Below are positions 842 to 47,435 of a stretch of 64,000 nucleotides of DNA, piece after piece. The translations under genes were made by a program, and so were the position numbers. Numbering within the stretch: position 1 is the first letter of the stretch; each line of letters starts with the position of its first letter. This DNA comes from Tortispora ganteri (lineage: Eukaryota). The stretch spans positions 186,001 to 250,000 of the forward strand of contig PPNB01000006.1 of the NCBI GenBank assembly GCA_003707115.1, read 5' to 3'. Below the pieces are notes generated by a model. It had not been told where the DNA came from and did not search any database. It worked only from the letters and a program-made list of their open reading frames with translations.

Positions 842-2383
842 TTAAGTAGTCCAACCAGTAGCTAGCCTTACTGCTTTTTCCCATAGCTGTATTTTACTCG
901 AACGTTCAGCTTTCGTAGACGTCGATTCAAATCTCGTAATGTTGTATGCAGACATATGATCCAATTCTTCTATAGATTTCCATATTCCAGCACCTATACC
1001 TGCAGCCAATGCTGCTCCAAAAGCTGAAGACTCTTTCATCAATGGTCGTAAAAGAGGGAATCCAAGAATGTCTGCCTGAATCTGGCAAAACTCATCAGAT
1101 GCACTCATACCGCCATCAACCCGCAGCTCCTTCACAGAACCTGCACCAGGTTCGCCAGTACTAGCTGCATCAGCAGACATAGAAATCATGATAGCATCGG
1201 CCTGAAAACAAATAGCTTCAATCAGAGCCCGTATAATATGAGCCTTAGTAGTAAAGCTAGTAATTCCAAATACTGTGCCACGTACGCTGTCTATCCAGTA
1301 TGGAGCAAATAGTCCAGAAAAGCCCGTAACAAACACTACTCCACCTGTATCAGGTACACTGGCTGCCAAAGGTCCCACTTCTTTAGCATCCTGTATGAGA
1401 CCCATACGGTCTTTGGCCCATTGTAACGCTGATCCAGCAACTGCTATGCTTCCTTCCAACGCGTACACGGGTTTCATGCCTTTAAAATGGTATCCCACAG
1501 TCGTTAGGAGCCCGTTTGACGACATCACAGGCTCGTTACCTGTATTATACAGTATAAACGCACCCGTTCCGTAAGTTGCTTTACATTGACCGACATTAAA
1601 TGCCTTTTGCCCTACTAATGCCGCCGATTGGTCTCCGAGGCATCCACTGACAGGACAATTCTGCAATTTACCAAACCCCAATGTACAATACTTTTCAGCT
1701 GAACTGACAATTTTAGGCAGTTTAACACCTTCCAATCCAAAGAATTTAATTAAAGCAGGGTCATATTCAAGCTTTTTGATGTCTATAAGCAAATATCGTG
1801 AAGCGTTCGATGCGTCTGTCACATGAATCCCACCGTCTTTGGCGCCGCTGAAATTGTATAGCAGCCATGAGTCGACAGTGCCTGCCATAAGTGTACCAGC
1901 TTCTTTGGCAGTTCTCACATCAGGCACATTATCTAATAGCCACCTCAATTTCACTGCAAAAAAGTACGATGAAATATTCAGACCGGTTGTCTTGCGGACA
2001 TATTCTGCTTCAGGGAGAGCATTGTATTTAGCAGCTAGTTCCGATGTGCGAACATCCGACCATACTATAGCAGAATGTAATGGTTTTCCTGTTACTGAAT
2101 CCCATACAACAGTAGTTTCACGCTGATTCGTTAAACCAATAGCTTTAATCAGTTTATAGTCTAGGCCACTGTTTTCCATGTCCTTTAGCACCTCGTTAAT
2201 ACATTCTTTGACATCCTCAAATAACCCACAAGGATCATGTTCTACGTATCCTGATTGTGGATACAACGCTTCAATCTCTTTTTGATAAGAAGAGACAATT
2301 TTACCTTCTGTATCGAAAACAATAAAACGCGTTGATGTAGTGCCCTGATCAATTGCACCAATGTATTTCAACGTGTTAACCAT
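842..2383 (-). CDS. GUT1: Glycerol kinase (FGGY family)
   Basis: IDQGTTSTRF, TNQRETTVVWD, TDASNASR, GDQSAALVG, KATYGTGAF, ALEGSIAVAG, FSGLFAPYW and RVDGG motifs. Confidence 0.97.
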   Translation of the reverse strand: MVNTLKYIGAIDQGTTSTRFIVFDTEGKIVSSYQKEIEALYPQSGYVEHDPCGLFEDVKECINEVLKDMENSGLDYKLIKAIGLTNQRETTVVWDSVTGKPLHSAIVWSDVRTSELAAKYNALPEAEYVRKTTGLNISSYFFAVKLRWLLDNVPDVRTAKEAGTLMAGTVDSWLLYNFSGAKDGGIHVTDASNASRYLLIDIKKLEYDPALIKFFGLEGVKLPKIVSSAEKYCTLGFGKLQNCPVSGCLGDQSAALVGQKAFNVGQCKATYGTGAFILYNTGNEPVMSSNGLLTTVGYHFKGMKPVYALEGSIAVAGSALQWAKDRMGLIQDAKEVGPLAASVPDTGGVVFVTGFSGLFAPYWIDSVRGTVFGITSFTTKAHIIRALIEAICFQADAIMISMSADAASTGEPGAGSVKELRVDGGMSASDEFCQIQADILGFPLLRPLMKESSAFGAALAAGIGAGIWKSIEELDHMSAYNITRFESTSTKAERSSKIQLWEKAVRLATGWTT

Positions 2384-12823: not shown

Positions 12824-13109
12824 GTGGATGTGGTTGGTTTATAATACAAGTTACGCGTTCAGATTATATCGCATGTAGTAAAGCCGGGTAACTTACACAG
12901 GTCTTTGGATGACCAGCACGATGAGAGACAATAGTATAGCTGTAGTTGCATTATATTTACAATTAATGGTGTACAGATAGGTAGACATGTAAACAAAAAG
13001 ACATGTCTATAATCACTGTGCATATGTGACAAAATAAAACCGCTAGCTGTACGCGGTTGTTCATTGTAGAGAGATACCCTAACAATTTATATCTTGCAGA
13101 TCGTATCTT

Positions 13110-13412
13110 TCACCTTTTCAAGGTCTTTTTAACCATAGAAGAGCCGCCGTTCTGTTTGAGATTGTTGCGATCCCAGCAATCCTTAAACGCCTGAACTTCA
13201 TTGGCGCATTTGCGCCAGTCTTTGTGATAGAAGTAACAATCTGTTAAGGTGTCGTTTTCTGCTATTATTGGAGTTAGTACAAGCGTACTATTTTGACCAC
13301 AATACGTTACCTTTACAGCCCGTGCTACTTATTCTCTTATCCCTGAAATCGTGTTAGTTATCCTCTATCAGATCAACATTGATCAAACTTACCAATCGTC
13401 TTCTTCATCCAT
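13110..13412 (-). CDS. COA4: Cytochrome c oxidase assembly factor Coa4 (twin CX9C). Three exons: 13412-13393, 13342-13311, 13261-13110.
   Basis: Spliced product MDEEDDWDKRISSTGCKAENDTLTDCYFYHKDWRKCANEVQAFKDCWDRNNLKQNGGSSMVKKTLKR. Introns are 13343-13392 (GTAAGT..ACTAAC..CAG) and 13262-13310 (GTAACG..TACTAAC..TAG). Confidence 0.9.
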
Positions 13413-13485
13413 TGTTGCCTGATTCCAAATTCAAGGTTTAGACGCACACTGGACATCTTTCCCCAACCAAACCCCACATAAGACC

Positions 13486-15474
13486 ATGAATGTTCTCGTA
13501 TACGCTGGAAAAGGATCTTCTCCAGAAGCAGTACGCCATGCATGTCATCAACTGCGATGGATTTTATCTCCATACTATGCAGTAACTACTGTCGATGCCG
13601 ATGCACTCATTAACCACCCATGGCCTGCCTACACAGCCTGCCTGGTGATGCCCGGCGGTGCAGACCTGCCCTACTGCGAAGCACTAAACGGCGAGGCTAA
13701 TCGCAAGATACTCAACTGGATTCGGTCTGGTGGCAAATACATTGGATTTTGCGCCGGTGGATACTACGGTTCTTCCCGTATCGAGTTTGAACTCGGAACG
13801 CCCCTCGCCATTCAAGGCTCCCGCGAACTCAAACTGTTTCCGGGTACTGCCCGCGGATGCGCCTATCCGGGATTTGTCTATGACTCTGAGTCTGGTGCAC
13901 GTGCTACTACTCTTCGCTATGATAATGGCGAAACAGCAACATACTACAATGGTGGTGGCCTATTTGTTGATGCCGATTCCGCTGAGAACACTACGGTCCT
14001 CGCCCGGTACACAGAGAAACCTCTCGCTGTCGATGGAGGTGACGCCGCTGTTATTAAATGTACTGTCGGTAAAGGTATTGCCCTATTAACTGGCGTGCAT
14101 CCTGAATTCTCAGCTGAGATACTCCGCAGACAGAACTCCTCAGATCCTAACCACCACCTATCTGATCCGGTGTTGAAGAAACTTCTCGACAACGACCAGT
14201 CCAGAATGCAATTTCTGCGCTATCTCGTTGGGCCCTATGGACTTAGACTCAAAGTTGCAGAGGATATAAAGGCACCTACACCTACACCGTTGTTTATAAG
14301 CTCAATCACTCCTCAGGTCATGGAAGAATTCGTCGCCACATGCGTCGAGCCGTTGGTAGACAAAGACGGATATTTCCAAGGACAAACAGATAAGTTTCAA
14401 TTCATTACTGCCGGTTCAGTAGAGTATACCAAGGCGCTTTCAGAAGCTATTGAGGACAAAGATCAAGATGATCCCAACAAGAAACTGAAGACTGCCGTGC
14501 TATACAGAGGCCCGAATGCCATTCCGGAACCCCTTGATACTCCGTTTTTTAATCACTCGGTTTTTTACCGGAATTTGGTGTCTAGTCATGAAAAACTTCA
14601 CTCTAATTCAATTCACATTGGCATTACACTTATGTATGCCGATGTCATCACATCTACTAATACTATCATGGACGGTAACTTTTCACTATTAAAGAAGTTG
14701 CCTCACGGATTCACTGCAACAGCAGCGCAGCAGGTAGCAGGAAAAGGGCGGGCCGGGAATATGTGGGTCTCTCCTCATGGGTCCTTGCCATTCTCTGTGT
14801 TTTTGAGACACCCTTACTCGCCATCCAATCCGTCTCCTTCAGTGATATTGATACAATACCTGGCAGCATTGGCTATCACTGAGGCAATTTGTTCTGGAGA
14901 TTACCAAGAGATGCCAGTGCGTATAAAATGGCCCAACGACTTGTATATCAAAAACCCCGAACACGAACTTGATAGTTCCAAGCCTGAGTATACGAAGATC
15001 TGTGGTATCCTTGTGAGTTCCAGTCTATATGAGGACGACTACTTGGTGGTAGTAGGATGCGGAATCAATTGCACGAACTATGCACCTACTACATCACTGA
15101 ATACGGTCTTGCACCAACTAGTGAATCCGGCGAGGAAAGCGCGAGGCCTGTCTGAGCTTCCTGAGTTTAATCGCGAAGGGCTTCTAGGACGGATATTGGC
15201 GCAATTCGAAGTGATGTATGATAAGTTCAAATATGAAGGATTTGCGCCATTTTTGGATAGGTATTACGGAAGATGGTTGCACCAGGACAAGATCATTAGA
15301 TTACAAGAAGAAAATGGAATGCCGTGCCGCATCAAGGGGATAGATTTAGAGTTCGGTATGCTTGAGGTTGCAGCCGTTGACGATTTTGGCCGTGAGACGG
15401 GACAGAAGTTTTCATTACAGCCTGATGGAAATTCGTTCGATATGCTGAATGGACTAATCAAAAGAAAGAAATGA
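13486..15474 (+). CDS. BPL1: Biotin-protein ligase / holocarboxylase synthetase
   Basis: N-terminal BPL_N domain (MNVLVYAG.G, MPGGADLPYC, GFCAGGYY). Catalytic QVAGKGRAGNMWVSP, IKWPNDLY, KICGIL and terminal LQPDGNSFDML.GLI. Confidence 0.97.
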   Translation: MNVLVYAGKGSSPEAVRHACHQLRWILSPYYAVTTVDADALINHPWPAYTACLVMPGGADLPYCEALNGEANRKILNWIRSGGKYIGFCAGGYYGSSRIEFELGTPLAIQGSRELKLFPGTARGCAYPGFVYDSESGARATTLRYDNGETATYYNGGGLFVDADSAENTTVLARYTEKPLAVDGGDAAVIKCTVGKGIALLTGVHPEFSAEILRRQNSSDPNHHLSDPVLKKLLDNDQSRMQFLRYLVGPYGLRLKVAEDIKAPTPTPLFISSITPQVMEEFVATCVEPLVDKDGYFQGQTDKFQFITAGSVEYTKALSEAIEDKDQDDPNKKLKTAVLYRGPNAIPEPLDTPFFNHSVFYRNLVSSHEKLHSNSIHIGITLMYADVITSTNTIMDGNFSLLKKLPHGFTATAAQQVAGKGRAGNMWVSPHGSLPFSVFLRHPYSPSNPSPSVILIQYLAALAITEAICSGDYQEMPVRIKWPNDLYIKNPEHELDSSKPEYTKICGILVSSSLYEDDYLVVVGCGINCTNYAPTTSLNTVLHQLVNPARKARGLSELPEFNREGLLGRILAQFEVMYDKFKYEGFAPFLDRYYGRWLHQDKIIRLQEENGMPCRIKGIDLEFGMLEVAAVDDFGRETGQKFSLQPDGNSFDMLNGLIKRKK

Positions 15475-15600
15475 ATAATCTAAACAATTTTAAGAAAGAT
15501 CATTGAGATTGTCAATAAGACAAGGTAAATTGATTCACTGACGGATGAATTGGGAGTTCTATCTGAAAGATAGAGTTTTTATGCCAAGGTTCTTTTAGAA

Positions 15601-15610
15601 CCGGATAAAT
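15601..15610 (+). promoter_or_regulatory. CCGGATAAAT motif (CGGNTAAW type) upstream of xylitol dehydrogenase
   Basis: The identical 10-mer occurs in the same gene-relative orientation upstream of the xylose reductase (21361-21370, minus strand). A near copy, CGGATGAAT, is at 15542-15550. Confidence 0.55.
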
Positions 15611-15720
15611 TCGACACTGTGGTGACTTTTTCTTTTAACATAATCGTAAAGGAACGCCACCTTTTTGAACAATTTGATCAAAAAGATTTACAATTAAGAT
15701 ACTTAAACTATTAGCTAAAT

Positions 15721-16770
15721 ATGCCGGAAAATCTCTCATTTGTGTTAGAGTCTGTGGGGAATGTGAAATTTGAAGACCGGCCGATACCAGTTCCTGGATT
15801 TAAGGAAGTGCTAATTGAGGTGGTAGTGACTGGTATATGCGGATCAGATGTTCATTATTATACACATGGAGCCATTGGTGACTATGTTATGAAGAAACCT
15901 ATGGTTTTAGGTCATGAATCTGCTGGAAAAGTGGTTAAACTTGGAGATTCAGTAACTAGTTTAACCGTGGGTGATCGCGTTGCACTAGAGCCAGGAGTTC
16001 CTGGGCGTTATTCCAAATGGACTAAGTCAGGCAAATATAATCTAGATGATGATATGAAGTTTGCAGCTACGCCGCCATATGATGGTACACTTTGCAAATA
16101 TTATGTGTTACCAGAAGATTTTTGTTACAAATTGACTGAATCCATGTCTTACGAACAAGGTGCTCTGATTGAGCCGCTGGCAGTGGGTGTACATGTGGCA
16201 AGGCAGGCATGCGTAAAACCCGGAGACAAGTGTGCTGTGTTTGGTGCTGGTCCGGTTGGATTGCTTATTGGACAGGTATGTAAGGCATTTAACTGCGGGT
16301 CTGATGTAACTATTGTTGATATATCGGATGCAAGGCTAGAGATGGCGGCGTCATTAGGATTGATTGCGATCAAAGCTGGGAAAACTCCAGAGGAGACTTC
16401 AGAGAAGATCATTGAATCATTGGGTGGACATCCACAGGCTGTAATGGAAGCATCTGGTGCATTACCTTCTATTAAAGCGGCGTGTCTGGTAGTCGAGAAG
16501 GGAGGCACGTACGTACAGGCGGGTATGGGTAATGACTTTATTGACGGGTTCCCGATATCACAAATTTGTATAAAGGAGGTTTCTTTAAAAGGTTCATTCC
16601 GCTATAGTGAGGGTGATTATTCTACGGCAATCCAACTAGTGGATAAAGGATTAGTGAATGTCAACAAGCTAATTACGAAGAAGTTCTCATTTGCAGAAGC
16701 TAAAGAAGCATTTGAATTTGTCAAAGCAGGTAAAGGTGTTAAAGTGCTTATTGACAATTCTACTTCTTAA
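15721..16770 (+). CDS. XYL2: NAD+-dependent xylitol (sorbitol) dehydrogenase, MDR family
   Basis: TGICGSDVHYY.HG.IG, PMVLGHESAG, GDRVALEPG, KFAATPPYDGTL, GALIEPLAVGVH, FGAGPVGLL, NAD-type Asp (VDI) and GSFRY. Confidence 0.9.
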   Translation: MPENLSFVLESVGNVKFEDRPIPVPGFKEVLIEVVVTGICGSDVHYYTHGAIGDYVMKKPMVLGHESAGKVVKLGDSVTSLTVGDRVALEPGVPGRYSKWTKSGKYNLDDDMKFAATPPYDGTLCKYYVLPEDFCYKLTESMSYEQGALIEPLAVGVHVARQACVKPGDKCAVFGAGPVGLLIGQVCKAFNCGSDVTIVDISDARLEMAASLGLIAIKAGKTPEETSEKIIESLGGHPQAVMEASGALPSIKAACLVVEKGGTYVQAGMGNDFIDGFPISQICIKEVSLKGSFRYSEGDYSTAIQLVDKGLVNVNKLITKKFSFAEAKEAFEFVKAGKGVKVLIDNSTS

Positions 16771-16971
16771 TTCTTAATTGTTTTATTTTATTATTATTAT
16801 TACAAATGGCTTGTTTTTTCATTTATTTATTGAAAAGATATCACTCTTTCTCTGTAACCGCTAAGAACCAAAGCAAAGCATCCTCTTTCCCCCACTCCCC
16901 GCCTTTTCCCCTTTCCCAGCTAAATCATACACACACCCAAAAGCCAGCGATTGGTATCTGCGAAATATAAC

Positions 16972-19158
16972 ATGACAAGTTTACCAGAAGCGGATAATAA
17001 AGCCATTGATTCGCGATCTCGCTCGAGATCTAGAAATGGATGTTGGACCTGTCGGTTACGAAAAAAGAAATGCGACGAAGAAAGACCAGTATGTAATCGC
17101 TGCTCGCTTCTCGATATAGCATGCTATGGGTTTTCTAATTCTGCACCATGGGGTAATGATCCGAGGAAAAAATCACAGGCATTAAATGATATAAAAATAA
17201 TGATTAAACAAGCTCAAGATAGGAAGAAAGAAAAGAATGATCTTACAAAGAAACATGAATCTTCTACCTCCAGTGTTTATACATCCTCAGCAATTCCACC
17301 AATAGCCTCTTCCTCATCCCATGGCCCAAGATCGATCGGCCCACCTAATTCCACAACAATACCTGGACTTTCTGAAGTTTTTTCTGACAATGGTACTTCA
17401 TCTGGCTCTAAAACTCTTCCACCTGTTTCTGAATCTTACAACAACATTAACAACAGCAGCAACACCTCCTCCACCAACATCGCTTCCCTCTCACCAGATT
17501 TCCTCTCCCCAACTGAAGTCCCTCTTTCTCCACGCCCTCTAAGCAACACCAAACAATCAACAACAAAGGACAAGCTGTCATACTTTGAAGGATCTGCAGT
17601 CGTTCTAGAGCATGCCACAATTTCACCTGCAGAACACACTCGCACTATCAGGTTCATAAGAGATAGAGAGTCCGCTCTCCTAATGCACTTTCTCGACACT
17701 CTGTTCCAGCTTCAATTCACCCTGTATACTCCCATGATTCGAGATGGTTCACGCGGCTGGCTCCTGATGATGCTTTTAAAGTCTAAACCCCTCTACAGTG
17801 CCAGTCTAGCCGCTGCTGCCTTGCATCAACAATACGTTCTTAGATCGGCCTCTATTGATATCTCACCGCATGTCACGCAAGAGCTAGAAAAGTATTATAC
17901 ATACTCTTTACAGGCTCTTCAAAGATGTATAAATATTACAATTTCTAAACAAAGCCAATCTTTCTTCAATACTGTTGAAACTCTCGCTTGCATTTGCCAA
18001 CTCGTCTCTCTTGAGGTAATTAACACCACGCGATCCACCAACTGGCAAATCCATGTCCGCGCTGGACTCGATTTATGTCGAGCAATTCGCTGGAAGTTTT
18101 GGTACGGCAGATTCAGCAGACCTGATGAGTTCAGTATCTCCGAAAATTTAAAAGAATCAACTGAAAAATCCGCTGTTCTGCCAAACCCTTACGAAGGTAC
18201 TCCTGAAATCTCACAGACAGACGAGCCAAGTCCTGCCTTGGAGTTTTTGGCTTTTGCATCCCCATTTACACAATCTGCAGAAATTTCGGCCGCTAATTTC
18301 TATTCTTGTATATTAATATGGCTTGACATATGTTCTGCTACAGTCTGTGCTACTATGCCGGCCGGTTTTAAATCATACCAATATCTTCTTTTGGAAGACG
18401 ATTCTATTGAAGACCCTCTTAGTCCTACAGCGACAAAGGCCTCTGCATCTTTAGGAAACATAATGGGCTGTTATAATCACGTTCTTTTATGCATAGCTGA
18501 AATCGCTATTATTCATTATCGTCTGAACAATCCTTACCTTGAATTGTCTCCTTTGAGCGGCTCCGACACTGTCTCCCCGGGCAATACCAACGAGGATATG
18601 TTTTCAGAGTTCAGAATACATGAACGACCTGACCCCCTATTTGCTCCTATTGAGGAGGTGATCAGCAGTGTGAAGGCACGACTGGCTGCATTCATTGAAA
18701 CTCATCAAGAAAACAGGCTTGACGCTAAAGCCGCAGCTTCTAGAATGCCGCCTCCGCAACTGCGAATCTTAAATGAACGCCATAGAATGGCTCAAAGAGC
18801 AGTTACCAGTTACACTTTTGCTTGTGCTGCTCTGGTTTACTTGTACACGGTTACGAATTCCGGAGATATTGGCGCTGCAGCAGACCAGACTGTGTTAGCA
18901 TTGCAAGATATCGACTCGCAAGACCTACTTTTGGGTCTGACATGGCCCATATGTGTTGCTGGAACGATGATGAATAGTAATTCTACGCTTCGGACTTCTT
19001 TCTTGAACATGATTGAGCCCTTGTCGGTACCAAATTTTGGCAACATGGGATCTACTATCCACATTGTTAAGGCCGCCTGGACACGGAGAGACCAGGGGTA
19101 TCCCTGCACTTGGCAGTCTGTCATGGATGAACTAAATATGCGCGTTCTTCTTGTTTGA
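16972..19158 (+). CDS. Zn(II)2Cys6 transcription factor with a C-terminal fungal-specific TF domain (Pro1/NosA-like zinc cluster)
   Basis: RSRNGCWTCRLRKKKCDEERPVCNRCSLLDIAC; later LMHFLD.LF.LQF, RGWLL, WQIH, IMGC.N, LTWPICVAG. First ATG is 16972. Confidence 0.92.
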   Translation: MTSLPEADNKAIDSRSRSRSRNGCWTCRLRKKKCDEERPVCNRCSLLDIACYGFSNSAPWGNDPRKKSQALNDIKIMIKQAQDRKKEKNDLTKKHESSTSSVYTSSAIPPIASSSSHGPRSIGPPNSTTIPGLSEVFSDNGTSSGSKTLPPVSESYNNINNSSNTSSTNIASLSPDFLSPTEVPLSPRPLSNTKQSTTKDKLSYFEGSAVVLEHATISPAEHTRTIRFIRDRESALLMHFLDTLFQLQFTLYTPMIRDGSRGWLLMMLLKSKPLYSASLAAAALHQQYVLRSASIDISPHVTQELEKYYTYSLQALQRCINITISKQSQSFFNTVETLACICQLVSLEVINTTRSTNWQIHVRAGLDLCRAIRWKFWYGRFSRPDEFSISENLKESTEKSAVLPNPYEGTPEISQTDEPSPALEFLAFASPFTQSAEISAANFYSCILIWLDICSATVCATMPAGFKSYQYLLLEDDSIEDPLSPTATKASASLGNIMGCYNHVLLCIAEIAIIHYRLNNPYLELSPLSGSDTVSPGNTNEDMFSEFRIHERPDPLFAPIEEVISSVKARLAAFIETHQENRLDAKAAASRMPPPQLRILNERHRMAQRAVTSYTFACAALVYLYTVTNSGDIGAAADQTVLALQDIDSQDLLLGLTWPICVAGTMMNSNSTLRTSFLNMIEPLSVPNFGNMGSTIHIVKAAWTRRDQGYPCTWQSVMDELNMRVLLV

Positions 19159-19265
19159 CCGTCTATTGGAACGAAGGGTAAGAAGTAGGCGCAACATATT
19201 CGCAGCGCGAATATGTTGCACACTAAATGTCATTATAATCTATTGATACCAATATAACCATGCCA

Positions 19266-20045
19266 TCAGCACGAGCATATAGAGCCCTTTACCGACATAA
19301 TCGACACGCTTCGTCCATCCCATATTGGGCGATCGCCGTATTGAACGCCGCTGCCAGAATCTTCAGGGTCTAAAGAGCCGAGTTCTATTTTTGTGAGGAT
19401 CATGGAAGCCAAACGGACGAAGGCGTCTTCGACGTTAAGGCCAGATTGCGCAGATGTCTGTATGACAGGTATATCAGGGTGTCTAGAACTGAACGCTTCT
19501 AGTTGCGCGTAGGTAATGGGCTGATTAGGCTGGATGACGGAGTAGGGCGAAGAGTAGTTGGGCTGAGCTGAAGAGAGTAGGTCTGTCTTGTTGACAGCTA
19601 GAACTATAGATACTGTGTTATTTGTGAGATTTTTCACATCAACTAGGAAATCCTCTAACGGCGGAAGAGATGCCTGATCCGAGCTATCGGCAACAAGAAG
19701 CACGCCAGCAGATGCACGATAATAAGAGCGCGTGATTGATCTGAATCTTTCCTGACCAGCAGTATCCCAGAGTTGCAGTTTCATACGTTTCACCATGCTT
19801 CTATTTGCACCTCGTGGTCCCGAACGTGAATCTGAGATTTTTAGTAGCCGAGAAGTGAATTCCACACCTACAGTATGAGAAGTCGCGGGTCTAAACTCGC
19901 CTCTAGTGAACCTATGCAATAAACATGATTTTCCCGCTCCAGAGGGTCCCAGTAAGATAATTTTCGCAAGATAATCGTATGTTAGATAGTCAAGTTCCTG
20001 ATCAGATGATTCTATAGTCTTTGAAGACGATTTTCTCCGTCTCAT
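19266..20045 (-). CDS. Rab GTPase, Rab4/Ypt4-like
   Basis: YDYLAKIILLGPSGAGKSCLLHRF, HTVGVEFTS, LQLWDTAGQERFRSITRSYYR, NKTD, TSA, ILTKIELG.LDPED..SGVQYGD and a C-terminal CXC (CSC). Confidence 0.9.
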   Translation of the reverse strand: MRRRKSSSKTIESSDQELDYLTYDYLAKIILLGPSGAGKSCLLHRFTRGEFRPATSHTVGVEFTSRLLKISDSRSGPRGANRSMVKRMKLQLWDTAGQERFRSITRSYYRASAGVLLVADSSDQASLPPLEDFLVDVKNLTNNTVSIVLAVNKTDLLSSAQPNYSSPYSVIQPNQPITYAQLEAFSSRHPDIPVIQTSAQSGLNVEDAFVRLASMILTKIELGSLDPEDSGSGVQYGDRPIWDGRSVSIMSVKGSICSC

Positions 20046-20300
20046 TGTGGGTAAAACTGGTCAACCAATGATGAACAGGGCTAGGCTACCATGTTTCTTT
20101 GGGTCTTGGTCGGTGGAGAACACTTTACGAGAGATGTCACGTGCCTATACAGGAACCAATGGTTTATATATTTTGTCTGTATACATGATTTAAACTCAAC
20201 TTCAGAGCGGGATTGATAGAAGATATATAAAATTGTTTTTTATATTTTGAATGGCTCGTCCAGTTCGTAAAATGAGCTAGCAGATTCTCGTTTGATCATT

Positions 20301-21263
20301 TCAAGCGAAAATGTAGACCGGTTCTGGCCAGTCTGCGGGATCATTGAATCGGAGACCAATATCGAGGCCAGATATCGCATTAATTTCTTGTTCAGAGAGA
20401 TCAAAAGAGGTAACGTCAAAGTTCTCTGCAAGACGCGCCGGGTTAGACGATTTAGGAATGACTGCAATACCATTCTGCGTAGCCCAACGCAGAAGCACCT
20501 GGGCGGGTGTCTTGCCGTGAGCAGCGGCGATTTCGTTAATAAGCGGATGCTTGAACAGTGAAACTACATTCTCGGCCTTGGTAGACTTCAATTCAAGAAA
20601 AGATTGTGGACCAAACGAGGAATAGGCGGTCACGGCTATGTTCTTCTGCTTGGCGAGCTTGAGAAGCGCGGGCTGGGTGAGATACGGGTGGTGTTCGATC
20701 TGTAGCACTGCAGGAGCAATGCGTGCCCCGCGGAGCAAGTCAAGAATAATGGATCCTTGACAGTTCGAAATTCCAATTGAACGGACAAGTCCCTTGTCGA
20801 CAAGAGACTCCATAGCTTTCCATGTCTCGAGAAGAGGAATATTCTCAAAAGCCATAGTGGCAACGTCCTTTCCGCAGTAGAAAGTCGGAGGGTACTTCTC
20901 TTCAGGATCGACGTACTTCTGTGCAATTGGGAAATGAATGAGGAACAAATCGAAGTAGTCTACGCCCCAATCTGCCAACGATCGACGACACATCTTCTCG
21001 ACGTGTTTAGGGTCATGGAAAGAGTTCCATAGTTTGGATGTCACAAACACATCTTCACGTTTAACAATACCGTCATCGATAGCTTTCTTTAGTCCTTGAC
21101 CGGCTTCTTTCTCATTGCCATAGTCCTGAGCGCCGTCGAGGAGTCTGTATCCTGCCTTCAGCACATTGTACACTTGGTCGGCGCAGATACTGGTATCGAC
21201 TTTCCACAGCCCGTAACCGACAAGTGGCATGCTATATCCGGATGATAATTTCACTGAGACCAT
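20301..21263 (-). CDS. XYL1: NAD(P)H-dependent D-xylose (aldose) reductase, AKR2B type
   Basis: [48 protein letters not shown]...[33 protein letters not shown] and LRFNDP.DW. ATG is at 21263. Confidence 0.93.
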
Positions 21264-21360
21264 TTCGCTTTTCAATTATGTACCGTCCGTATAATCTGAT
21301 TCTGACCCGGCTCCAGCAATTGTAGCGCTTTTATATATGCTAAAAAGTAGACCTTACCTC

Positions 21361-21379
21361 ATTTATCCGGACGGGTAAA
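21361..21379. promoter_or_regulatory. Everted pair of CGGNTAAA half-sites (TTTATCCG-GA-CGGGTAAA) upstream of xylose reductase
   Basis: Near-palindrome with one mismatch. 21361-21370 is the reverse complement of the XYL2 promoter 10-mer. A TATA-like run is at about 21329-21338. Confidence 0.55.
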
Positions 21380-22732
21380 AGATACGTATAGAACACCGTC
21401 ACATGATTGGCCAACGGGAAATTGCAAAACTTTGTTATCAAAAGTAAAGCTTTCTTGAACATGAAAATCAGGAGTACCTTGTAAGCAATACATCTCATGT
21501 ACAGTACTTCAGCAGGTAATATAAACTGACTTGTAATTCTTTCTGCATTTTTAGTTTCCAGCTAGTACCAAATTGATGTCATTGTGCTGTTGGTGTCTTT
21601 TCCAAGCTCCCTATATATAAATCATGACGACAGAAACCTTATTTCATCAGCCCCACAGTATGCTTATGAACAATATACTAGCCTTCTATAGAACAATAAA
21701 TAGAGGGTGGTTGAAGTTAAAGGAAATTTTAGACGTCATTGCATTTCAGTCAATGAAAGTATAGCAGCCACATCGCTGATATGTGTACTGGATGCAAGAC
21801 CCGCGTACTTTAACCATGATGTGCTCTTCTTACGGATCAACATGTGATATCATACCCTTTTGAGACCATATCAGATCTCACAGTTTCAATTCAACAACTA
21901 TTTGTTCATAATCATAAGCCCCTGATTCGCTGGTCATTTAAAGTCCAAGCCCGCCAGTCACTTGTAATTTTCTTGTCACCGGTCGTTCCTTAAATAAAAC
22001 CTTATTGAATTTGACCAAAATGACATCCCACCGTCTCTCTCTGTCTGCGAACATGTTTGTCCGCCATATTGAGCTGTCAATTTCTTCTGAATTATACAAG
22101 AATTTGTGAATCAGTTAGTTTTTAGTAACATGATACCCATTAAGTGACTTTATTCAAGCCCAGTTCTTTGCTTCACACTGCTATTGAGGCGCTGCATTTT
22201 TGTTCGCCAGCCGCAAATAACAACAACAAAAGATACCTACGCTAGCTGCACCTAGCCGCATTACTATAACATCCATACAATTGCAATAAAACTGTTTATT
22301 GCTATAATGTATCAAAATGGTCATGCCATTGTCGCATAATCACTATAGTTTCGTCTTCAGACATACGATCAAACAAGGGTATCCTTGACCCTAAAACGGA
22401 AAAACCGCCCAACGTCCAACCATATCGAATCAAATCATGTCACCTGGTCCACTCCCTTCCCCTGACAACCACCCTTCATCCCCATAAACATTCCTAATCC
22501 AGTTTCCCCTACCCTTTGTTTATACATTGACAAAGTCAATCCTCAGCGGACGTTTCGTTTTGACTTGCAGACGGAGAAGCCACAGTCAACGAAGAACCCA
22601 CTTAGAAAGTGACCACCAATTTATAGATTCCTGTGCGAAGGCCTGCTTGGAGCCCTCTCCCTTTTCTCTTTTCCAATATTCCCGGATCCCTTTAGCCCTC
22701 ATCTTTCTTTCCTAAGGCAAAGTACCTTTCTG

Positions 22733-24430
22733 ATGGCCTCTACCTCAAACCAAAAGGCTTCCAATACATCTGGCAGGTCCTTCTCTCGCTTTCTGTTTTG
22801 TTGTTGTGGTGATTCCTATGTCGATGAAGCGCATTCCCCCGATTCCAGGCCTCCTTCTTCCGTCTCTGCCCCGCAGCCTACCGCTCTGCCGTCCGCCCAG
22901 CCAGTACAGGCCGATTCGACTGAACTTGCTGATCCAGTAGCTTCAGTTCCTGCACCTCAAAAAGCTCATGACTATGCGACTTTGCCTCGTCGTCGTGATA
23001 GCATAAAAAATCATTCAACTCCTTTGAAACCCGAACTATTCCCCACTCCCGACCCTCTCAATGAGTCCGATAAGGCGAGTGCGGAAATCGCTGAACCTAT
23101 GGGCATGGTTCCGGCCTTGTCGCAATCAGAACCCCGTTCTCCTTTGGCTGAAGACATCCAAGAGCCTATGCCTGATACAGTATCTGAATCACGTAGCTCC
23201 ATTTCTTCTGGTACTTCCGATGGCGGTGGAAGAAGCAGCCGTGCCAACAGTGTGACACACAGATCTCAATCGTCCGATGAACATGCTATCACCACAGATT
23301 CATCAAGCACGTCAGTACCATCAATACCTGAAAAAGTATCCGAAGCCGCAATACAGCGAACTGAAGCTGCACCGCCGCTGGTTTCAGCCATTATGACATC
23401 TCCTAAGAAAGCCAAAGCTACTACGCCAAACGTGTCCTCACCTTCTGTTCCTACTATTAGCATTGCCGCTCCACCTAAATCTATGATTATTGACGACGTT
23501 GACGATGGAAATGACCGCGGCAGATCATCACAGAAACTTAGACCTATAGATCGCGAAGAAAGTGCCGACAGCCACTCGTCCGACCTTCACAGTACAGGAC
23601 AGTCGTTAGTGGGTCGTATTTGGGAACACATGTTTCTTAGTTCAGAAGAAAGAAGACAGCGATCTCGCTCTCGCTCTGCAAACCGAGATTCGAAATCTAA
23701 TTCCAGACGCAGCTCACGATCTAGCAGAAGATCTCTTAGGCCTAGTACCTCGAGAAGCTCTTCACGAAGCTCAAGACCTTCTTCCTTGGATGAAAGTCTT
23801 CGAATGCTTGATTATGATTACGATCCTGATTACCAATTGCAAGCAAGCTCCACAATCGTGCCCGGACTTTCGCAGCACTGGCTACTCCATCCTACACGAA
23901 CTGAAATGATAGGTCGCAAGTGCCTGGTGTTAGACCTTGATGAGACATTGGTACATTCCTCTTTCAAGCTCCTGACGACTCCCGATTTTGTTGTACCAGT
24001 TGAAATTGAAGGCCAGTATCAGAGTGTTTACGTCATTAAGCGACCTGGTGTAGATGAGTTTCTTGAACGTGTTGGAAAACTTTTCGAAGTTGTTGTATTC
24101 ACAGCATCTGTGGCGAAATATGGAGATCCGTTGCTGGATAAGCTAGACAAAACCCATTCGGTGCATCATAGGCTGTTTCGTGAAGCCTGCTTTGTTCACC
24201 AAGGGACATATGTGAAAGACCTTTCGCAACTGGGAAGGCCGTTAAAAGACACGATCATAATTGACAATTCACCGTCGTCATACATGTTTCACCCTGACCA
24301 TGCTATACCTATTTCGTCGTGGTTTTCTGATTCACATGACACTGAACTGCTTGACATGCTGCCAATATTAGAAGATCTTGCTTCTTCGAAGGTGTCGGAT
24401 GTTTCCCGAGTATTGGATACAGCCCTATAA
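22733..24430 (+). CDS. PSR1: Plasma-membrane CTD-small-phosphatase-like protein (Psr1/Psr2, NIF family)
   Basis: N-terminal LFCCCG acylation motif. C-terminal [40 protein letters not shown] and [12 protein letters not shown]. Confidence 0.93.
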
Positions 24431-24772
24431 ATTGCCGGATTGAAATATTTACTATACGCTCATTTTATCAGTCATTCCTTTTTTTTTTGTCATTAATAGT
24501 TTGCGTCCTCTTTAGAAAGAAGCAAAGAACATTCAATTGCTTGAAGATAATCATTGACCTTTGAGACTCCCATAAATTCAGTAACTCTAGCATGTATATG
24601 AATCGCGCTAGCAGAAATAAGGTTTTTGTATTAGCAGAAGGCAGAACTTGGTAATAGTCATTACCTTAGATCAGCTTAGACGGACTTAATATTAGACTAG
24701 TTGGCGTATCTGAGTTGATTGTTGATAGCTCTGAGTTTCTTTGACTAGCAGAGGTCAGATTTGCGTCGTTAG

Positions 24773-46220: not shown

Positions 46221-47435
46221 TCAGTTTTCGGTAATGGGGATAAATTCTGCACCAGAATTTGTGGCGACACCTATACGTCCGGGTGCGATCCAGCCTGCGG
46301 GGTCGTAGCCGATGTCTAGCACAGTACGGGCGATTGCAACGTAAATGAGTGTCTGGTCCTTACAACGGACGAGCAGCTTGCCTGATTGCCAAGTTAGTGA
46401 AAGCACTGGGCCGTGAGTTTTTATGAGGAACATGGGATTCAGCAGGTCAAGTTTGGTGTTGGAAGGGCGCATCCATGGCAGGTGAAATACGATCACCGCG
46501 TCGCCGTCTACCTGAAGAGCGATCAGGAGCGTAGATTCAAGCAGGCAGCAGCGAATTAGGCCGGAGTCGCCGCGCAGAAATATCACGCGAGCGCTGCTAG
46601 AGCTAGTATAAGGTGCCACCCAAGTAGACAGAGGGTTGACCTCTACTTCTGGCGGTATACTGATACGTGCAATAACGGATGTGGTGGCGCTAACAAAAGG
46701 GTCGACAACATAGACGAATGACTCAGACGTGCACACGATCGCCGTACCGTCTGGCGTCCATTTGGCGTTGCGCACAGCTTCTGGCTCGCGGAGGACGTTC
46801 GTAGAGGCGGTTTGACTAAACAGGTTCATACATGCTACGCCAGTGTTGGCGAATCCAGAGTCCGCATCTAGAATAATAGCATTAGGTCCCGTTGTACAGG
46901 ACTCTATATCGATAAATCGCGGTGATACCGTACCCGTAGGGAAATCATATGATTGTGCAGATGAGGGAACTTCCATATATGATAATGTATTGTTGGCTGT
47001 AGTCATTGTAGCGCAACAAACTGTTTCACCATCGTGGAATAACACGGCAATATACTTACATGCTGAGTCATAAGCCCATGAGTTCAATGTTAACGGGTTG
47101 TTTATTGTCGCAACTACGACGCTTTCGCGAAGATCCCATATATGTATGGCGAGCAGATTGGACTCTATTAGGATGAAATAGTGCTTTACGACGGCGATAC
47201 GATCGCATTCTGGTACTTTCACATGTTTTACGTCGTTTACATTACCTAAATCATCTAAAGTCACAAATAAAGCAGTGAATGCCTCTGTCACGGCTACAAT
47301 AAAGGATTGATCCGCTTTCAGCAATTTGACTCGTTCGAATGAGTCGATTGTCCAGTTACGCGCGTCAAGCGTGTATCCCTTTACCATTTTTCCAACTGAC
47401 CGTACAACAACATTTTTCGCGAATGTGAATGGCAT
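46221..47435 (-). CDS. Divergent WD40-like beta-propeller protein (possibly Wdr8/WRAP73-like)
   Basis: Long open frame rich in beta-strand patterns, with IHIWDL...INNP, AKWTPDG and LSLTW. The family assignment is weak. Confidence 0.55.
   Translation of the reverse strand: MPFTFAKNVVVRSVGKMVKGYTLDARNWTIDSFERVKLLKADQSFIVAVTEAFTALFVTLDDLGNVNDVKHVKVPECDRIAVVKHYFILIESNLLAIHIWDLRESVVVATINNPLTLNSWAYDSACKYIAVLFHDGETVCCATMTTANNTLSYMEVPSSAQSYDFPTGTVSPRFIDIESCTTGPNAIILDADSGFANTGVACMNLFSQTASTNVLREPEAVRNAKWTPDGTAIVCTSESFVYVVDPFVSATTSVIARISIPPEVEVNPLSTWVAPYTSSSSARVIFLRGDSGLIRCCLLESTLLIALQVDGDAVIVFHLPWMRPSNTKLDLLNPMFLIKTHGPVLSLTWQSGKLLVRCKDQTLIYVAIARTVLDIGYDPAGWIAPGRIGVATNSGAEFIPITEN

What the first reader, a model, noticed from the sequence alone, without database searches (positions are those of the whole stretch)
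15721..21263. Putative xylose-catabolism gene cluster: XYL2, Zn2Cys6 TF, Rab4, XYL1 within 5.5 kb
Seen in sequence: a xylitol dehydrogenase (15721-16770, +) and a xylose reductase (20301-21263, -) point toward each other and bracket a Zn2Cys6 TF and a Rab4-like GTPase. Established: these enzymes catalyse steps 1 and 2 of the fungal oxidoreductive xylose pathway. To my knowledge XYL1 and XYL2 are unlinked in well-studied xylose yeasts, unlike the GAL or DAL clusters. Inference: this may be a co-regulated XYL cluster with an embedded regulator. Xylulokinase (XYL3) is not in the window, and Rab4 is probably a passenger.
Basis: partly seen in the sequence, partly recalled or inferred. Interest (0 to 1): 0.85.

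Follow-up and report, generated by a model that had tools for sequence, protein, structure and literature searches.

The report
Linked xylose genes in Tortispora yeast
In this cactus-associated yeast the genes for the first two steps of xylose breakdown lie 5.5 kb apart around a lineage-specific regulator gene, an arrangement not seen in the other fungi sampled, though whether it acts as one co-regulated unit is still untested.

Summary
All four ORFs sit at the stated coordinates: an XDH/SDH-type polyol dehydrogenase (XYL2), a Zn2Cys6 transcription factor, a Rab4-like GTPase and a xylose reductase (XYL1). The window comes from a Tortispora yeast. T. caseinolytica has 87-96% identical orthologues with consecutive accessions ODV92420-92423, so the four-gene block is shared. 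That relative may be only about 11 My distant, so the shared order says little about selection.

The linkage is not general. XR and XDH lie on contigs of different length in 10 of 10 other species I could pair, and 0 of 80 metagenomic XR loci carry an XDH nearby.

The TF has no close relative outside Tortispora (33% identity or less). A CGG-containing element (CGGATRAAT) occurs three times in 64 kb, always upstream of XDH or XR. T. caseinolytica is a carbon specialist that grows fastest on xylose.

Co-regulation and the TF's role are untested, because no RNA data or deeper relatives were reachable. XYL3 is absent from the window: the FGGY kinase at 842-2383 is a glycerol kinase.

Verdict: this is a real linkage specific to this lineage. 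It is plausibly a young catabolic cluster with its own regulator (about 45%), and chance linkage is nearly as likely (about 40%).

The parts
15475..15720 (+). XDH (XYL2) promoter region, 246 bp, 30% GC. It carries two copies of CGGATRAAT (15542-15550 and 15602-15610; the latter is part of the exact 10-mer CCGGATAAAT at 15601-15610, 120 bp upstream of the ATG).
15721..16770 (+). XYL2-type NAD-dependent polyol (xylitol/sorbitol) dehydrogenase, 349 aa
   Evidence: 93% identical to T. caseinolytica ODV92420.1. 5 of 5 listed strain differences are synonymous.
16972..19158 (+). Zn2Cys6 (Zn_clus + Fungal_trans_2) transcription factor, 728 aa, restricted to this lineage. Candidate regulator.
   Evidence: 87% identical to T. 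caseinolytica ODV92421.1; all other hits are 33% identical or less. 10 of 10 listed strain differences are synonymous.
19191..19219 (.). Perfect 13-nt inverted repeat with a 3-nt loop, in the 107-bp spacer between the converging 3' ends of the TF and Rab4 genes. Role unknown.
   Evidence: RNA fold z = -3.13
19266..20045 (-). Rab4-like small GTPase, 259 aa, ending in CSC. Probable housekeeping passenger.
   Evidence: 96% identical to T. caseinolytica ODV92422.1.
20301..21263 (-). XYL1/GRE3-type xylose (aldose) reductase, 320 aa, with the variant cofactor motif KSS-X3-R
   Evidence: 95% identical to T. caseinolytica ODV92423.1.
21264..22732 (-). XR (XYL1) upstream region, 1469 bp, shared divergently with a NIF-phosphatase gene. 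The exact 10-mer CCGGATAAAT at 21361-21370 (-) lies 107 bp upstream of the XR ATG. No ORF longer than 52 aa and no Rfam match.

Best explanation
This is a young catabolic gene pair specific to this lineage. The only XYL1 (xylose reductase) and XYL2 (xylitol/sorbitol dehydrogenase) orthologues of a Tortispora yeast have come to lie 5.5 kb apart, around a Tortispora-restricted Zn2Cys6 transcription factor and a housekeeping Rab4 gene.

Shown: the gene identities, the physical linkage, the same order in T. caseinolytica, the lack of linkage elsewhere, and purifying selection on all four genes.

From established biochemistry: XR reduces D-xylose to xylitol with NAD(P)H, and XDH oxidises xylitol to D-xylulose with NAD+. 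XYL3 is encoded elsewhere and phosphorylates the xylulose.

Inferred: the embedded TF is the pathway activator. It would bind the CGG-containing element CGGATRAAT found 107 to 179 bp upstream of both enzyme genes. The linkage would be kept because xylose is a main carbon source for these carbon-specialist yeasts.
For: Gene identities.

Orthology. In my tree the XR branches inside the budding-yeast XR clade, sister to the Serinales sequences named XR/xyl1/GRE3. In the three gene trees in the supplement of Nalabothu et al. 2023, each Tortispora species appears once per tree, i.e. single copy (tip labels only; assigning the trees to XYL1, XYL2 and XYL3 is my reading of the tip labels).

Same order in T. 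caseinolytica: ODV92420 (XDH), 92421 (TF), 92422 (Rab4), 92423 (XR), all on a 3,117,240-bp contig.

Not linked elsewhere: 10 of 10 paired species and 0 of 80 metagenomic XR loci, 44 of which have at least 5 kb of extra flank.

TF. Intact Zn2Cys6 plus Fungal_trans_2 domains. 87% identical to its T. caseinolytica orthologue and 33% or less to everything else, so the TF and the linkage are both peculiar to this lineage. 10 of 10 listed strain differences are synonymous.

Cis element. The exact 10-mer CCGGATAAAT occurs twice in 64 kb, at -120 of XDH and -107 of XR, both in the gene's orientation. A match in the same orientation within 15 bp of the same position occurred in 21 of 2000 shuffles. The relaxed core CGGATRAAT has 3 matches in the window, and all 3 lie in these two promoters.

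Physiology (supplement file 4 of PMC10327049). T. caseinolytica is scored a carbon specialist with 4 sources, and xylose gives the highest rate (0.0199 against 0.0132 on glucose). T. starmeri also grows faster on xylose (0.0131) than on glucose (0.0094).

Precedent: the C. intermedia GALLAC cluster places an XYL1 paralogue beside the Zn2Cys6 regulator LAC9_2, whose motifs lie in the cluster promoters (PMC11497787, passages).
Against: There are no expression data of any kind.

Conservation is shown only against T. caseinolytica, which may be about 11 My distant (PMC11449361), and gene order is expected to persist that long without selection.

An unrelated Rab4 gene interrupts the block. XYL3 and any transporter are absent from the 64 kb.

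The enzyme genes sit at the outer edges and converge, so they share no promoter.

The motif was found by eye, and its test criterion was chosen afterwards. A shared 10-mer alone occurs in 1358 of 2000 shuffles, and 3 or more CGGATRAAT matches occur in 11 of 100 shuffles.

The TF belongs to a large generic family with no known link to sugar regulation.

The prior for chance linkage, summed over all sequenced fungal lineages, is not negligible.

The growth data come from other Tortispora species, not necessarily from the species of this window.
Confidence: 0.45

Rival explanations
1. Fortuitous linkage. Both enzymes are real, functional xylose-pathway genes, but a neutral rearrangement in a Tortispora ancestor placed them near each other. 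The TF regulates something else, and the shared promoter 10-mer is coincidence.
For: Only a close relative shares the order (about 11 My if the window's species belongs to that subclade). An unrelated Rab4 gene lies between, and XYL3 is absent. The per-lineage chance of about 0.13%, multiplied over hundreds of independently rearranged fungal lineages, makes about one such case unsurprising. A shared 10-mer occurs in 1358 of 2000 shuffles. The TF family is generic. The finding was itself picked from a very large scan.
Against: Several features coincide: a Zn2Cys6 TF sits exactly between the two genes; that TF is lineage-restricted like the linkage; the shared element has matching position and orientation (21 of 2000 shuffles); a third copy of its core lies in the XDH promoter; and the genus grows better on xylose than on glucose.
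Confidence: 0.4
2. The pair is a general polyol-pathway module (aldose reductase plus sorbitol dehydrogenase) and not a xylose-specific unit. It would serve L-sorbose, galactose (oxidoreductive route) and stress polyol metabolism as much as xylose.
For: The dehydrogenase scores slightly higher to animal sorbitol DH (303/298 bits) than to xylitol DH 7y9p (291), and it lies on a long branch outside both XDH groups. Besides glucose, T. caseinolytica grows only on xylose, galactose and L-sorbose. As I recall, all three can pass through aldose reductase and/or sorbitol DH. An oxidoreductive galactose route exists in other yeasts (PMC11067038). [quoted passage not shown]
Against: This does not exclude a role in xylose. 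Xylose gives the fastest growth, and the XR is orthologous to sequences deposited as xylose reductase. Whether Tortispora has Leloir GAL genes was not testable here.
Confidence: 0.1
3. Assembly or annotation artefact: the genes are not truly adjacent, or are pseudogenes.
For: None found.
Against: One contig of run X2 spans the whole 11.5 kb at about 99.5% identity (52 substitutions, 1 gap). The ORFs are intact and match the lengths of the T. caseinolytica proteins to within 2 residues. The accessions in an independent genome are consecutive. All 20 listed within-gene strain differences in XDH, TF and Rab4 are synonymous.
Confidence: 0.01

Closest known systems
GALLAC cluster of Candida (Sungouiella) intermedia (PMC11497787, abstract and passages read)
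   Same: A species-restricted sugar-catabolic cluster in a budding yeast. [quoted passage not shown]
   Different: GALLAC arose by duplication of GAL1, GAL10, LAC9 and XYL1 and serves galactose and lactose. Here the genes are the sole XYL1 and XYL2 copies, the TF is not a Gal4/Lac9 relative, no XDH is present in GALLAC, and regulation here is untested.
XYL1/XYL2/XYL3 regulon of Scheffersomyces (Pichia) stipitis (PMC2784038, passages read)
   Same: The same two enzymatic steps. In S. stipitis the genes are induced together on xylose and repressed on glucose.
   Different: The passage on functional clusters that I read names maltose, beta-glucosidase, rhamnose, galactose, NAG and pyrimidine clusters and no XYL cluster. 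That the XYL genes lie on different chromosomes is something I recall. No dedicated regulator is described there.
MAL loci of Saccharomyces and the L-rhamnose (LRA) cluster of S. stipitis (recalled; the rhamnose cluster is mentioned in PMC2784038)
   Same: Small catabolic clusters in which a pathway-specific Zn2Cys6 activator gene sits beside the structural genes it induces.
   Different: Those clusters include the transporter or the whole pathway, with no unrelated gene in between. Here only two of three steps are present, and a Rab4 gene intervenes.
XlnR/Xyr1 xylanolytic regulon of filamentous Ascomycota (recalled)
   Same: A Zn2Cys6 activator controlling xylose reductase and xylitol dehydrogenase genes.
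   Different: As I recall, the XlnR targets are dispersed. The TF here carries Fungal_trans_2 (PF11951), and none of its 120 listed relatives is named XlnR or Xyr1, so it is not an XlnR orthologue.

Membership tests
XYL1/GRE3-type xylose (aldose) reductase (AKR) | Aldo-keto reductase fold over the full length | tested here: met
   PF00248, 174 bits, residues 17-300
XYL1/GRE3-type xylose (aldose) reductase (AKR) | Closer to characterised xylose reductases than to other AKR subfamilies | tested here: met
   443 and 432 bits to entries deposited as xylose reductase (5z6t, 1jez), against 228 bits for the best other AKR. 61-67% identity to proteins named XR/xyl1/GRE3.
XYL1/GRE3-type xylose (aldose) reductase (AKR) | Branches within the fungal XYL1 orthogroup | tested here: met
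   FastTree of 31 sequences rooted on Saitoella. Tortispora falls inside the Saccharomycotina clade, sister to the Serinales XRs (support values were not displayed). Single copy in the trees of Nalabothu et al..
XYL1/GRE3-type xylose (aldose) reductase (AKR) | Catalytic tetrad Asp-Tyr-Lys-His (role recalled) | tested here: met
   D43, Y48, K77 and H110 are invariant columns in the 28-sequence alignment A1
XYL1/GRE3-type xylose (aldose) reductase (AKR) | Cofactor-pocket motif KSN-X3-R (PMC7068945) | tested here: not met
   The window reads K271-S-S273-N-P-A-R277. Asn is present in 29 of 29 non-Tortispora XRs; T. caseinolytica also has Ser. This bears on cofactor preference, not on membership of the orthogroup.
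XYL1/GRE3-type xylose (aldose) reductase (AKR) | Xylose-reducing activity | not testable with these tools
   Needs an enzyme assay
XYL2-type xylitol/sorbitol dehydrogenase (MDR) | Zn-dependent MDR architecture | tested here: met
   ADH_N 82 bits plus ADH_zinc_N 77 bits
XYL2-type xylitol/sorbitol dehydrogenase (MDR) | XDH/SDH subfamily and not L-arabinitol dehydrogenase | tested here: met
   291-303 bits to XDH/SDH structures, against 203 bits to LAD 3m6i. Best named hits are D-xylulose reductase/xylitol DH at 53-57% identity.
XYL2-type xylitol/sorbitol dehydrogenase (MDR) | Catalytic-zinc and substrate residues conserved (roles recalled from sorbitol DH structures) | tested here: met
   In the alignment to sheep SDH, the segments CGSDVHY, GHE, IEPL and FRY are conserved. 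94 of 100 columns that are invariant in 27 other XDHs are kept.
XYL2-type xylitol/sorbitol dehydrogenase (MDR) | Branches with yeast XYL2 orthologues | tested here: inconclusive
   Long branch outside both the yeast and the Pezizomycotina XDH groups in a midpoint-rooted tree with no outgroup. Median identity 55%, against 67% among other yeasts. It appears as the single Tortispora entry in the published tree I take to be XYL2.
XYL2-type xylitol/sorbitol dehydrogenase (MDR) | Preference for xylitol over sorbitol | not testable with these tools
   Sequence does not separate XDH from SDH. [quoted passage not shown]
Fungal catabolic gene cluster | Two or more steps of one pathway encoded within a few genes of each other | tested here: met
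   Steps 1 and 2 lie 5.5 kb apart with two genes between them. Contiguity confirmed.
Fungal catabolic gene cluster | Linkage conserved beyond what neutral synteny decay would leave | tested here: inconclusive
   Conserved in T. caseinolytica, but that species may be only about 11 My distant.
Fungal catabolic gene cluster | Co-expression of the member genes | not testable with these tools
   Needs expression data, which none of these tools could supply for this organism
Fungal catabolic gene cluster | Embedded regulator with sites in member promoters | tested here: inconclusive
   A Zn2Cys6 TF is present. The element is shared at -120 and -107 (21 of 2000 shuffles, post hoc), and 3 of 3 CGGATRAAT sites in the window lie in the two promoters. 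There is no binding evidence.
XlnR/Xyr1 regulators | Orthology to XlnR | tested here: not met
   The middle domain is PF11951. None of the 120 listed relatives is named XlnR/Xyr1; the best are 24-33% identical Pezizomycotina proteins named as PRO1-like or pestheic-acid-cluster regulators.
Rab4 subfamily GTPase | Closest to Rab4 among solved Rabs, with a C-terminal prenylation motif | tested here: met
   Rab4A 142 bits and Rab4B 135 bits, ahead of Rab14 at 126. The protein ends in CSC.

The most novel reading that the evidence does not exclude
Tortispora carries the first natural XYL1-XYL2 gene cluster known in fungi, controlled by a lineage-born Zn2Cys6 activator that recognises CGGATRAAT. That would be a dedicated xylose regulator in a budding yeast. 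The cluster would be the hub of a carbon specialist's diet (xylose, and possibly L-sorbose and galactose by oxidoreductive routes). Its reductase, with the unusual KSS-X3-R cofactor motif, would use NADH well enough to balance the NAD+-dependent dehydrogenase, which would help explain faster growth on xylose than on glucose.
Probability: 0.15. Interest if true: 0.75.

Novelty: new member of a known kind. Interest (0 to 1): 0.45.

Why it matters
Xylose use by yeasts matters both ecologically and industrially. The abstract of PMC5331723 (search listing) calls regulation of xylose fermentation in native xylose-fermenting yeasts 'poorly understood', and to my recollection no xylose-specific activator is known in budding yeasts.

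If this block is a real regulon, it offers three things. First, a candidate xylose-responsive TF with its cis element, usable as an engineering part. Second, a natural XR variant in the cofactor motif that limits redox balance in engineered strains. Third, a dated example of how a two-gene catabolic cluster forms in a nutritional specialist.

If it is chance linkage, it is a useful caution: pathway neighbours will turn up by accident in large genome scans.

Tried and rejected
Own genome: none is held, so I could not search for paralogues, XYL3 or transporters outside the window.

FGGY kinase at 842-2383 as XYL3: rejected; it is a glycerol kinase.

RNA evidence: no RNA holder listed. The two holders are DNA contigs of one organism; the other four runs listed hold next to none of the stretch's words.

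Earlier notes of this scan: nothing found by place, words or sequence.

Codon bias as a proxy for expression: bias is weak throughout the window (Nc 45-61). XDH ranks 3rd lowest of 33 genes, XR is unremarkable, and ACO1 sits mid-table. Uninformative.

Hidden gene or ncRNA in the 1.47-kb XR upstream region: no ORF over 52 aa, 0 Rfam matches in the window, 0 tRNAs.

ESM Atlas for the TF: only generic Zn2Cys6/Fungal_trans_2 clusters.

Transfer of the block from Pezizomycotina (suggested by the TF's nearest relatives): rejected for XR, which sits inside the yeast clade. Unresolved for XDH (long branch) and for the TF.

Literature on XYL linkage. Searches found no paper that reports natural XYL1-XYL2 adjacency. 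The main text of Nalabothu et al. 2023 has 0 occurrences of 'cluster', 'synten' or 'adjacent'. Review PMC8625115 gave no relevant passage. Subscription journals are not covered, including the 2013 Tortispora description, so a report there would have been missed.

The contig-length test of linkage in other species is indirect. 'Longest contig' can refer to another member of a multi-member protein cluster, and only 6 of the 10 pairs are single-member on both sides. Paralogues below the best 120 hits are not seen.

Mig1/CreA-like GCGGGG in the TF promoter (seen by eye): such 6-mers are expected by chance in 200 bp, so I did not pursue it.

Full report
WHAT IS THERE.
- 15721-16770(+): a 349-aa medium-chain dehydrogenase (ADH_N + ADH_zinc_N).
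- 16972-19158(+): a 728-aa Zn2Cys6 protein (Zn_clus + Fungal_trans_2).
- 19266-20045(-): a 259-aa Ras-superfamily GTPase.
- 20301-21263(-): a 320-aa aldo-keto reductase.

The reductase scores 443 and 432 bits to entries deposited as xylose reductase (5z6t, 1jez), and only 228 bits to the next AKR. The dehydrogenase scores 303/298 bits to sheep/human sorbitol dehydrogenase, 291 to xylitol dehydrogenase 7y9p and 203 to L-arabinitol dehydrogenase 3m6i. It therefore belongs to the XDH/SDH subfamily and is not a LAD, but sequence does not separate XDH from SDH. The GTPase is closest to Rab4A/Rab4B and ends in CSC.

The flanking genes are a biotin-protein ligase (13486-15474) and a NIF-type phosphatase (22733-24430). 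Pfam on 27 further ORFs of 150 aa or more across the window found no sugar transporter and only one sugar kinase. That kinase is a GlpK-type glycerol kinase and not a xylulokinase.

WHOSE GENOME. No whole genome is held for the window. The best relatives of all four proteins are from Tortispora caseinolytica NRRL Y-17796: XDH 93%, TF 87%, Rab4 96%, XR 95%. Everything else is at or below 57%, 33%, 56% and 67% respectively. The window therefore comes from another Tortispora species (Trigonopsidales, an early-branching order of budding yeasts that is largely associated with cacti; PMC11449361, passages). Two DNA runs of one coded organism hold the stretch. One 15,167-bp contig of X2 covers 13000-24500 in one piece with 52 substitutions and one gap, so the linkage is not an assembly artefact. 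Every within-gene difference that one search listed is synonymous: XDH 5 of 5, TF 10 of 10, Rab4 5 of 5, BPL1 17 of 17. Twelve further differences were not shown. All the genes, including the TF, are under purifying selection.

ORTHOLOGY. In a FastTree of 31 XRs rooted on Saitoella, the Tortispora XR sits inside the budding-yeast clade, sister to the Serinales sequences named XR/xyl1/GRE3 (support values were computed but did not appear in the ASCII drawing). I chose the rows by name from the best 120 hits; the unnamed metagenomic rows were left out. The Tortispora dehydrogenase sits on a long branch outside both the yeast and the Pezizomycotina XDH groups in a midpoint-rooted tree with no outgroup. 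Its median identity to 27 other XDHs is 55%, against 67% for other yeasts among themselves. Six of the 100 columns that are invariant in those 27 are changed. The segments that carry the catalytic-zinc and substrate residues are conserved against sheep SDH (their roles are recalled). The supplement of Nalabothu et al. 2023 (PMC10263009) lists each of T. caseinolytica, T. ganteri and T. starmeri once in each of three gene trees. I saw tip labels only, and assigning the trees to XYL1, XYL2 and XYL3 is my reading. The window's genes are then the sole XYL1 and XYL2 homologues of the genus. [quoted passage not shown]

IS THE LINKAGE SHARED? In T. caseinolytica the four orthologues carry consecutive GenBank accessions: ODV92420.1 (XDH), ODV92421.1 (TF), ODV92422.1 (Rab4) and ODV92423.1 (XR). 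All are on a contig of 3,117,240 bp. Reading consecutive accessions as consecutive genes is an inference from how records are numbered. The block is therefore shared. PMC11449361 dates the T. caseinolytica/mauiana/ganteri ancestor to about 11 Mya and the genus crown to about 180 Mya. At 87-96% protein identity the window probably belongs to the young subclade, where shared gene order is expected without any selection.

Outside Tortispora, I could pair the best XDH and XR hits by species name for 10 species: Lipomyces doorenjongii, L. japonicus, Dipodascopsis uninucleata, D. tothii, Kockiozyma suomiensis, Limtongia smithiae, Sugiyamaella lignohabitans, Peziza echinospora, Kalaharituber pfeilii and Aspergillus floccosus. 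In 10 of 10 the two proteins are on contigs of different length. This test is indirect, and only 6 of the pairs are single-member clusters on both sides. As an independent background, 80 metagenomic loci encoding XR relatives (47-66% identity) were fetched with up to 10 kb of flank. 0 of 80 contain any XDH-family, TF-like or Rab hit at E of 1e-5 or better, and 44 of the 80 have at least 5 kb of sequence beyond the XR. XR-XDH linkage is therefore peculiar to this lineage.

THE TF. It has an intact six-cysteine Zn2Cys6 motif and a Fungal_trans_2 middle domain. Beyond its 87% orthologue, the best relatives are 24-33% identical Pezizomycotina proteins, mostly Leotiomycetes. Some are named after PRO1 or the pestheic-acid cluster regulator. 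The only other budding-yeast hit is from Lipomyces kononenkoae (26% identity over 40% of the query). The ESM Atlas gives only generic clusters. It is not an XlnR/Xyr1 orthologue, and nothing known links its family to sugars.

PROMOTERS. The 246-bp XDH upstream region and the 1469-bp XR upstream region share the exact 10-mer CCGGATAAAT. Both copies are in the orientation of the gene, at -120 and -107 from the ATG. These are the only two exact copies in the 64 kb. A shared 10-mer as such is expected (1358 of 2000 Markov shuffles). A match in the same orientation within 15 bp of the same distance occurred in 21 of 2000 shuffles, but I chose that criterion after seeing the match. The relaxed core CGGATRAAT has three matches in the window, and all three are in these two promoters in the gene's orientation (15542, 15602, 21361). 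Three or more matches occur in 11 of 100 shuffles, so only the placement is notable. By eye, TCTTTTA precedes the element by 3 nt upstream of XDH and by 5 nt upstream of XR. The element contains a CGG half-site, the usual contact of Zn2Cys6 factors (recalled). It is a lead, not evidence of binding.

PHYSIOLOGY. In the Y1000+ growth table (PMC10327049, supplement file 4, rows read), T. caseinolytica is scored a carbon specialist with four sources: xylose 0.0199, glucose 0.0132, galactose 0.0108 and L-sorbose 0.0100. All other carbon sources score 0. T. starmeri also grows faster on xylose (0.0131) than on glucose (0.0094). T. sangerardonensis has no xylose value but grows fastest on L-arabinose (0.0290). 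These are other species than that of the window. They show that the pentose route is central to this genus. Two of the three non-glucose sugars used by T. caseinolytica (L-sorbose and galactose) can, in other fungi, be channelled through aldose reductase and/or sorbitol dehydrogenase (recalled; an oxidoreductive galactose route in yeasts is reported in PMC11067038, which does not mention Tortispora).

WEIGHING. The linkage, the gene identities and their function in pentose/polyol catabolism are well supported (about 0.9). Whether the linkage is maintained by selection and run by the embedded TF is open.
- In favour: a Zn2Cys6 gene sits exactly between the two enzyme genes; the TF and the linkage are both restricted to this lineage; the promoter element is matched in position; the genus prefers xylose; and there are precedents such as GALLAC.
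- Against: an unrelated Rab4 gene lies inside the block; there is no XYL3 or transporter; the enzyme genes converge from the outer edges and share no promoter; conservation is shown only over a short time; the motif was found post hoc; and the finding was selected from a very large scan, in which a per-lineage coincidence of about 0.13% will sometimes occur.
I put the co-regulated-cluster reading at about 0.45 and chance linkage at about 0.40.

NOVELTY. My searches found no report of natural XYL1-XYL2 adjacency, and the 332-species XYL survey does not discuss gene order. Subscription literature is not covered. Small catabolic clusters with an embedded Zn2Cys6 regulator are a known kind (GALLAC; MAL and LRA, recalled). 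This would be a new member for a new pathway, not a new kind of system.

Noticed in passing
window 20301-21263 (-), XR residues 271-277: The cofactor-pocket motif reads KSS-X3-R in place of the conserved KSN-X3-R. Asn is present in 29 of 29 non-Tortispora XRs compared, and T. caseinolytica also has Ser. Changes in this motif are reported to relax NADPH preference (PMC7068945), so this natural XR may use NADH better than usual.
   Followed up: partly
window 15721-16770 (+): The Tortispora dehydrogenase is unusually diverged: 55% median identity to other XDHs, against 67% among other yeasts. It changes 6 of 100 otherwise invariant columns (C109D, P139T in the window only, E146Q, G191N, T215I, A227S). 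This could reflect a shift in substrate range.
   Followed up: partly
window 19191-19219: A perfect 13-nt inverted repeat with a 3-nt loop lies in the 107-bp spacer between the converging 3' ends of the TF and Rab4 genes. The RNA fold z-score is -3.13, and 0 of 200 shuffles fold as well. Function unknown.
   Followed up: partly
window 842-2383 (-): An intact GlpK-type glycerol kinase is present, although the close relative T. caseinolytica scores zero growth on glycerol in the Y1000+ table.
   Followed up: no
window 19266-20045 (-): The Rab4-like GTPase is long for a Rab (259 aa). Its residues 22-231 align to residues 6-186 of the solved Rab4A chain, so it has about 29 extra residues within the core plus an N-terminal extension. 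52-53% identical counterparts exist in Nadsonia fulvescens (283 aa) and Yarrowia lipolytica (311 aa).
   Followed up: partly
window 46221-47435 (-) and 49997-51565 (-): Two long ORFs (404 and 522 aa) have no Pfam match at E of 1e-5 or better.
   Followed up: no
window 16771-16971: The TF's own upstream region holds a C-rich tract containing CCCCGC. Its reverse complement, GCGGGG, resembles a Mig1/CreA-type site (motif recalled). Such a 6-mer is expected by chance in 200 bp (seen).
   Followed up: no
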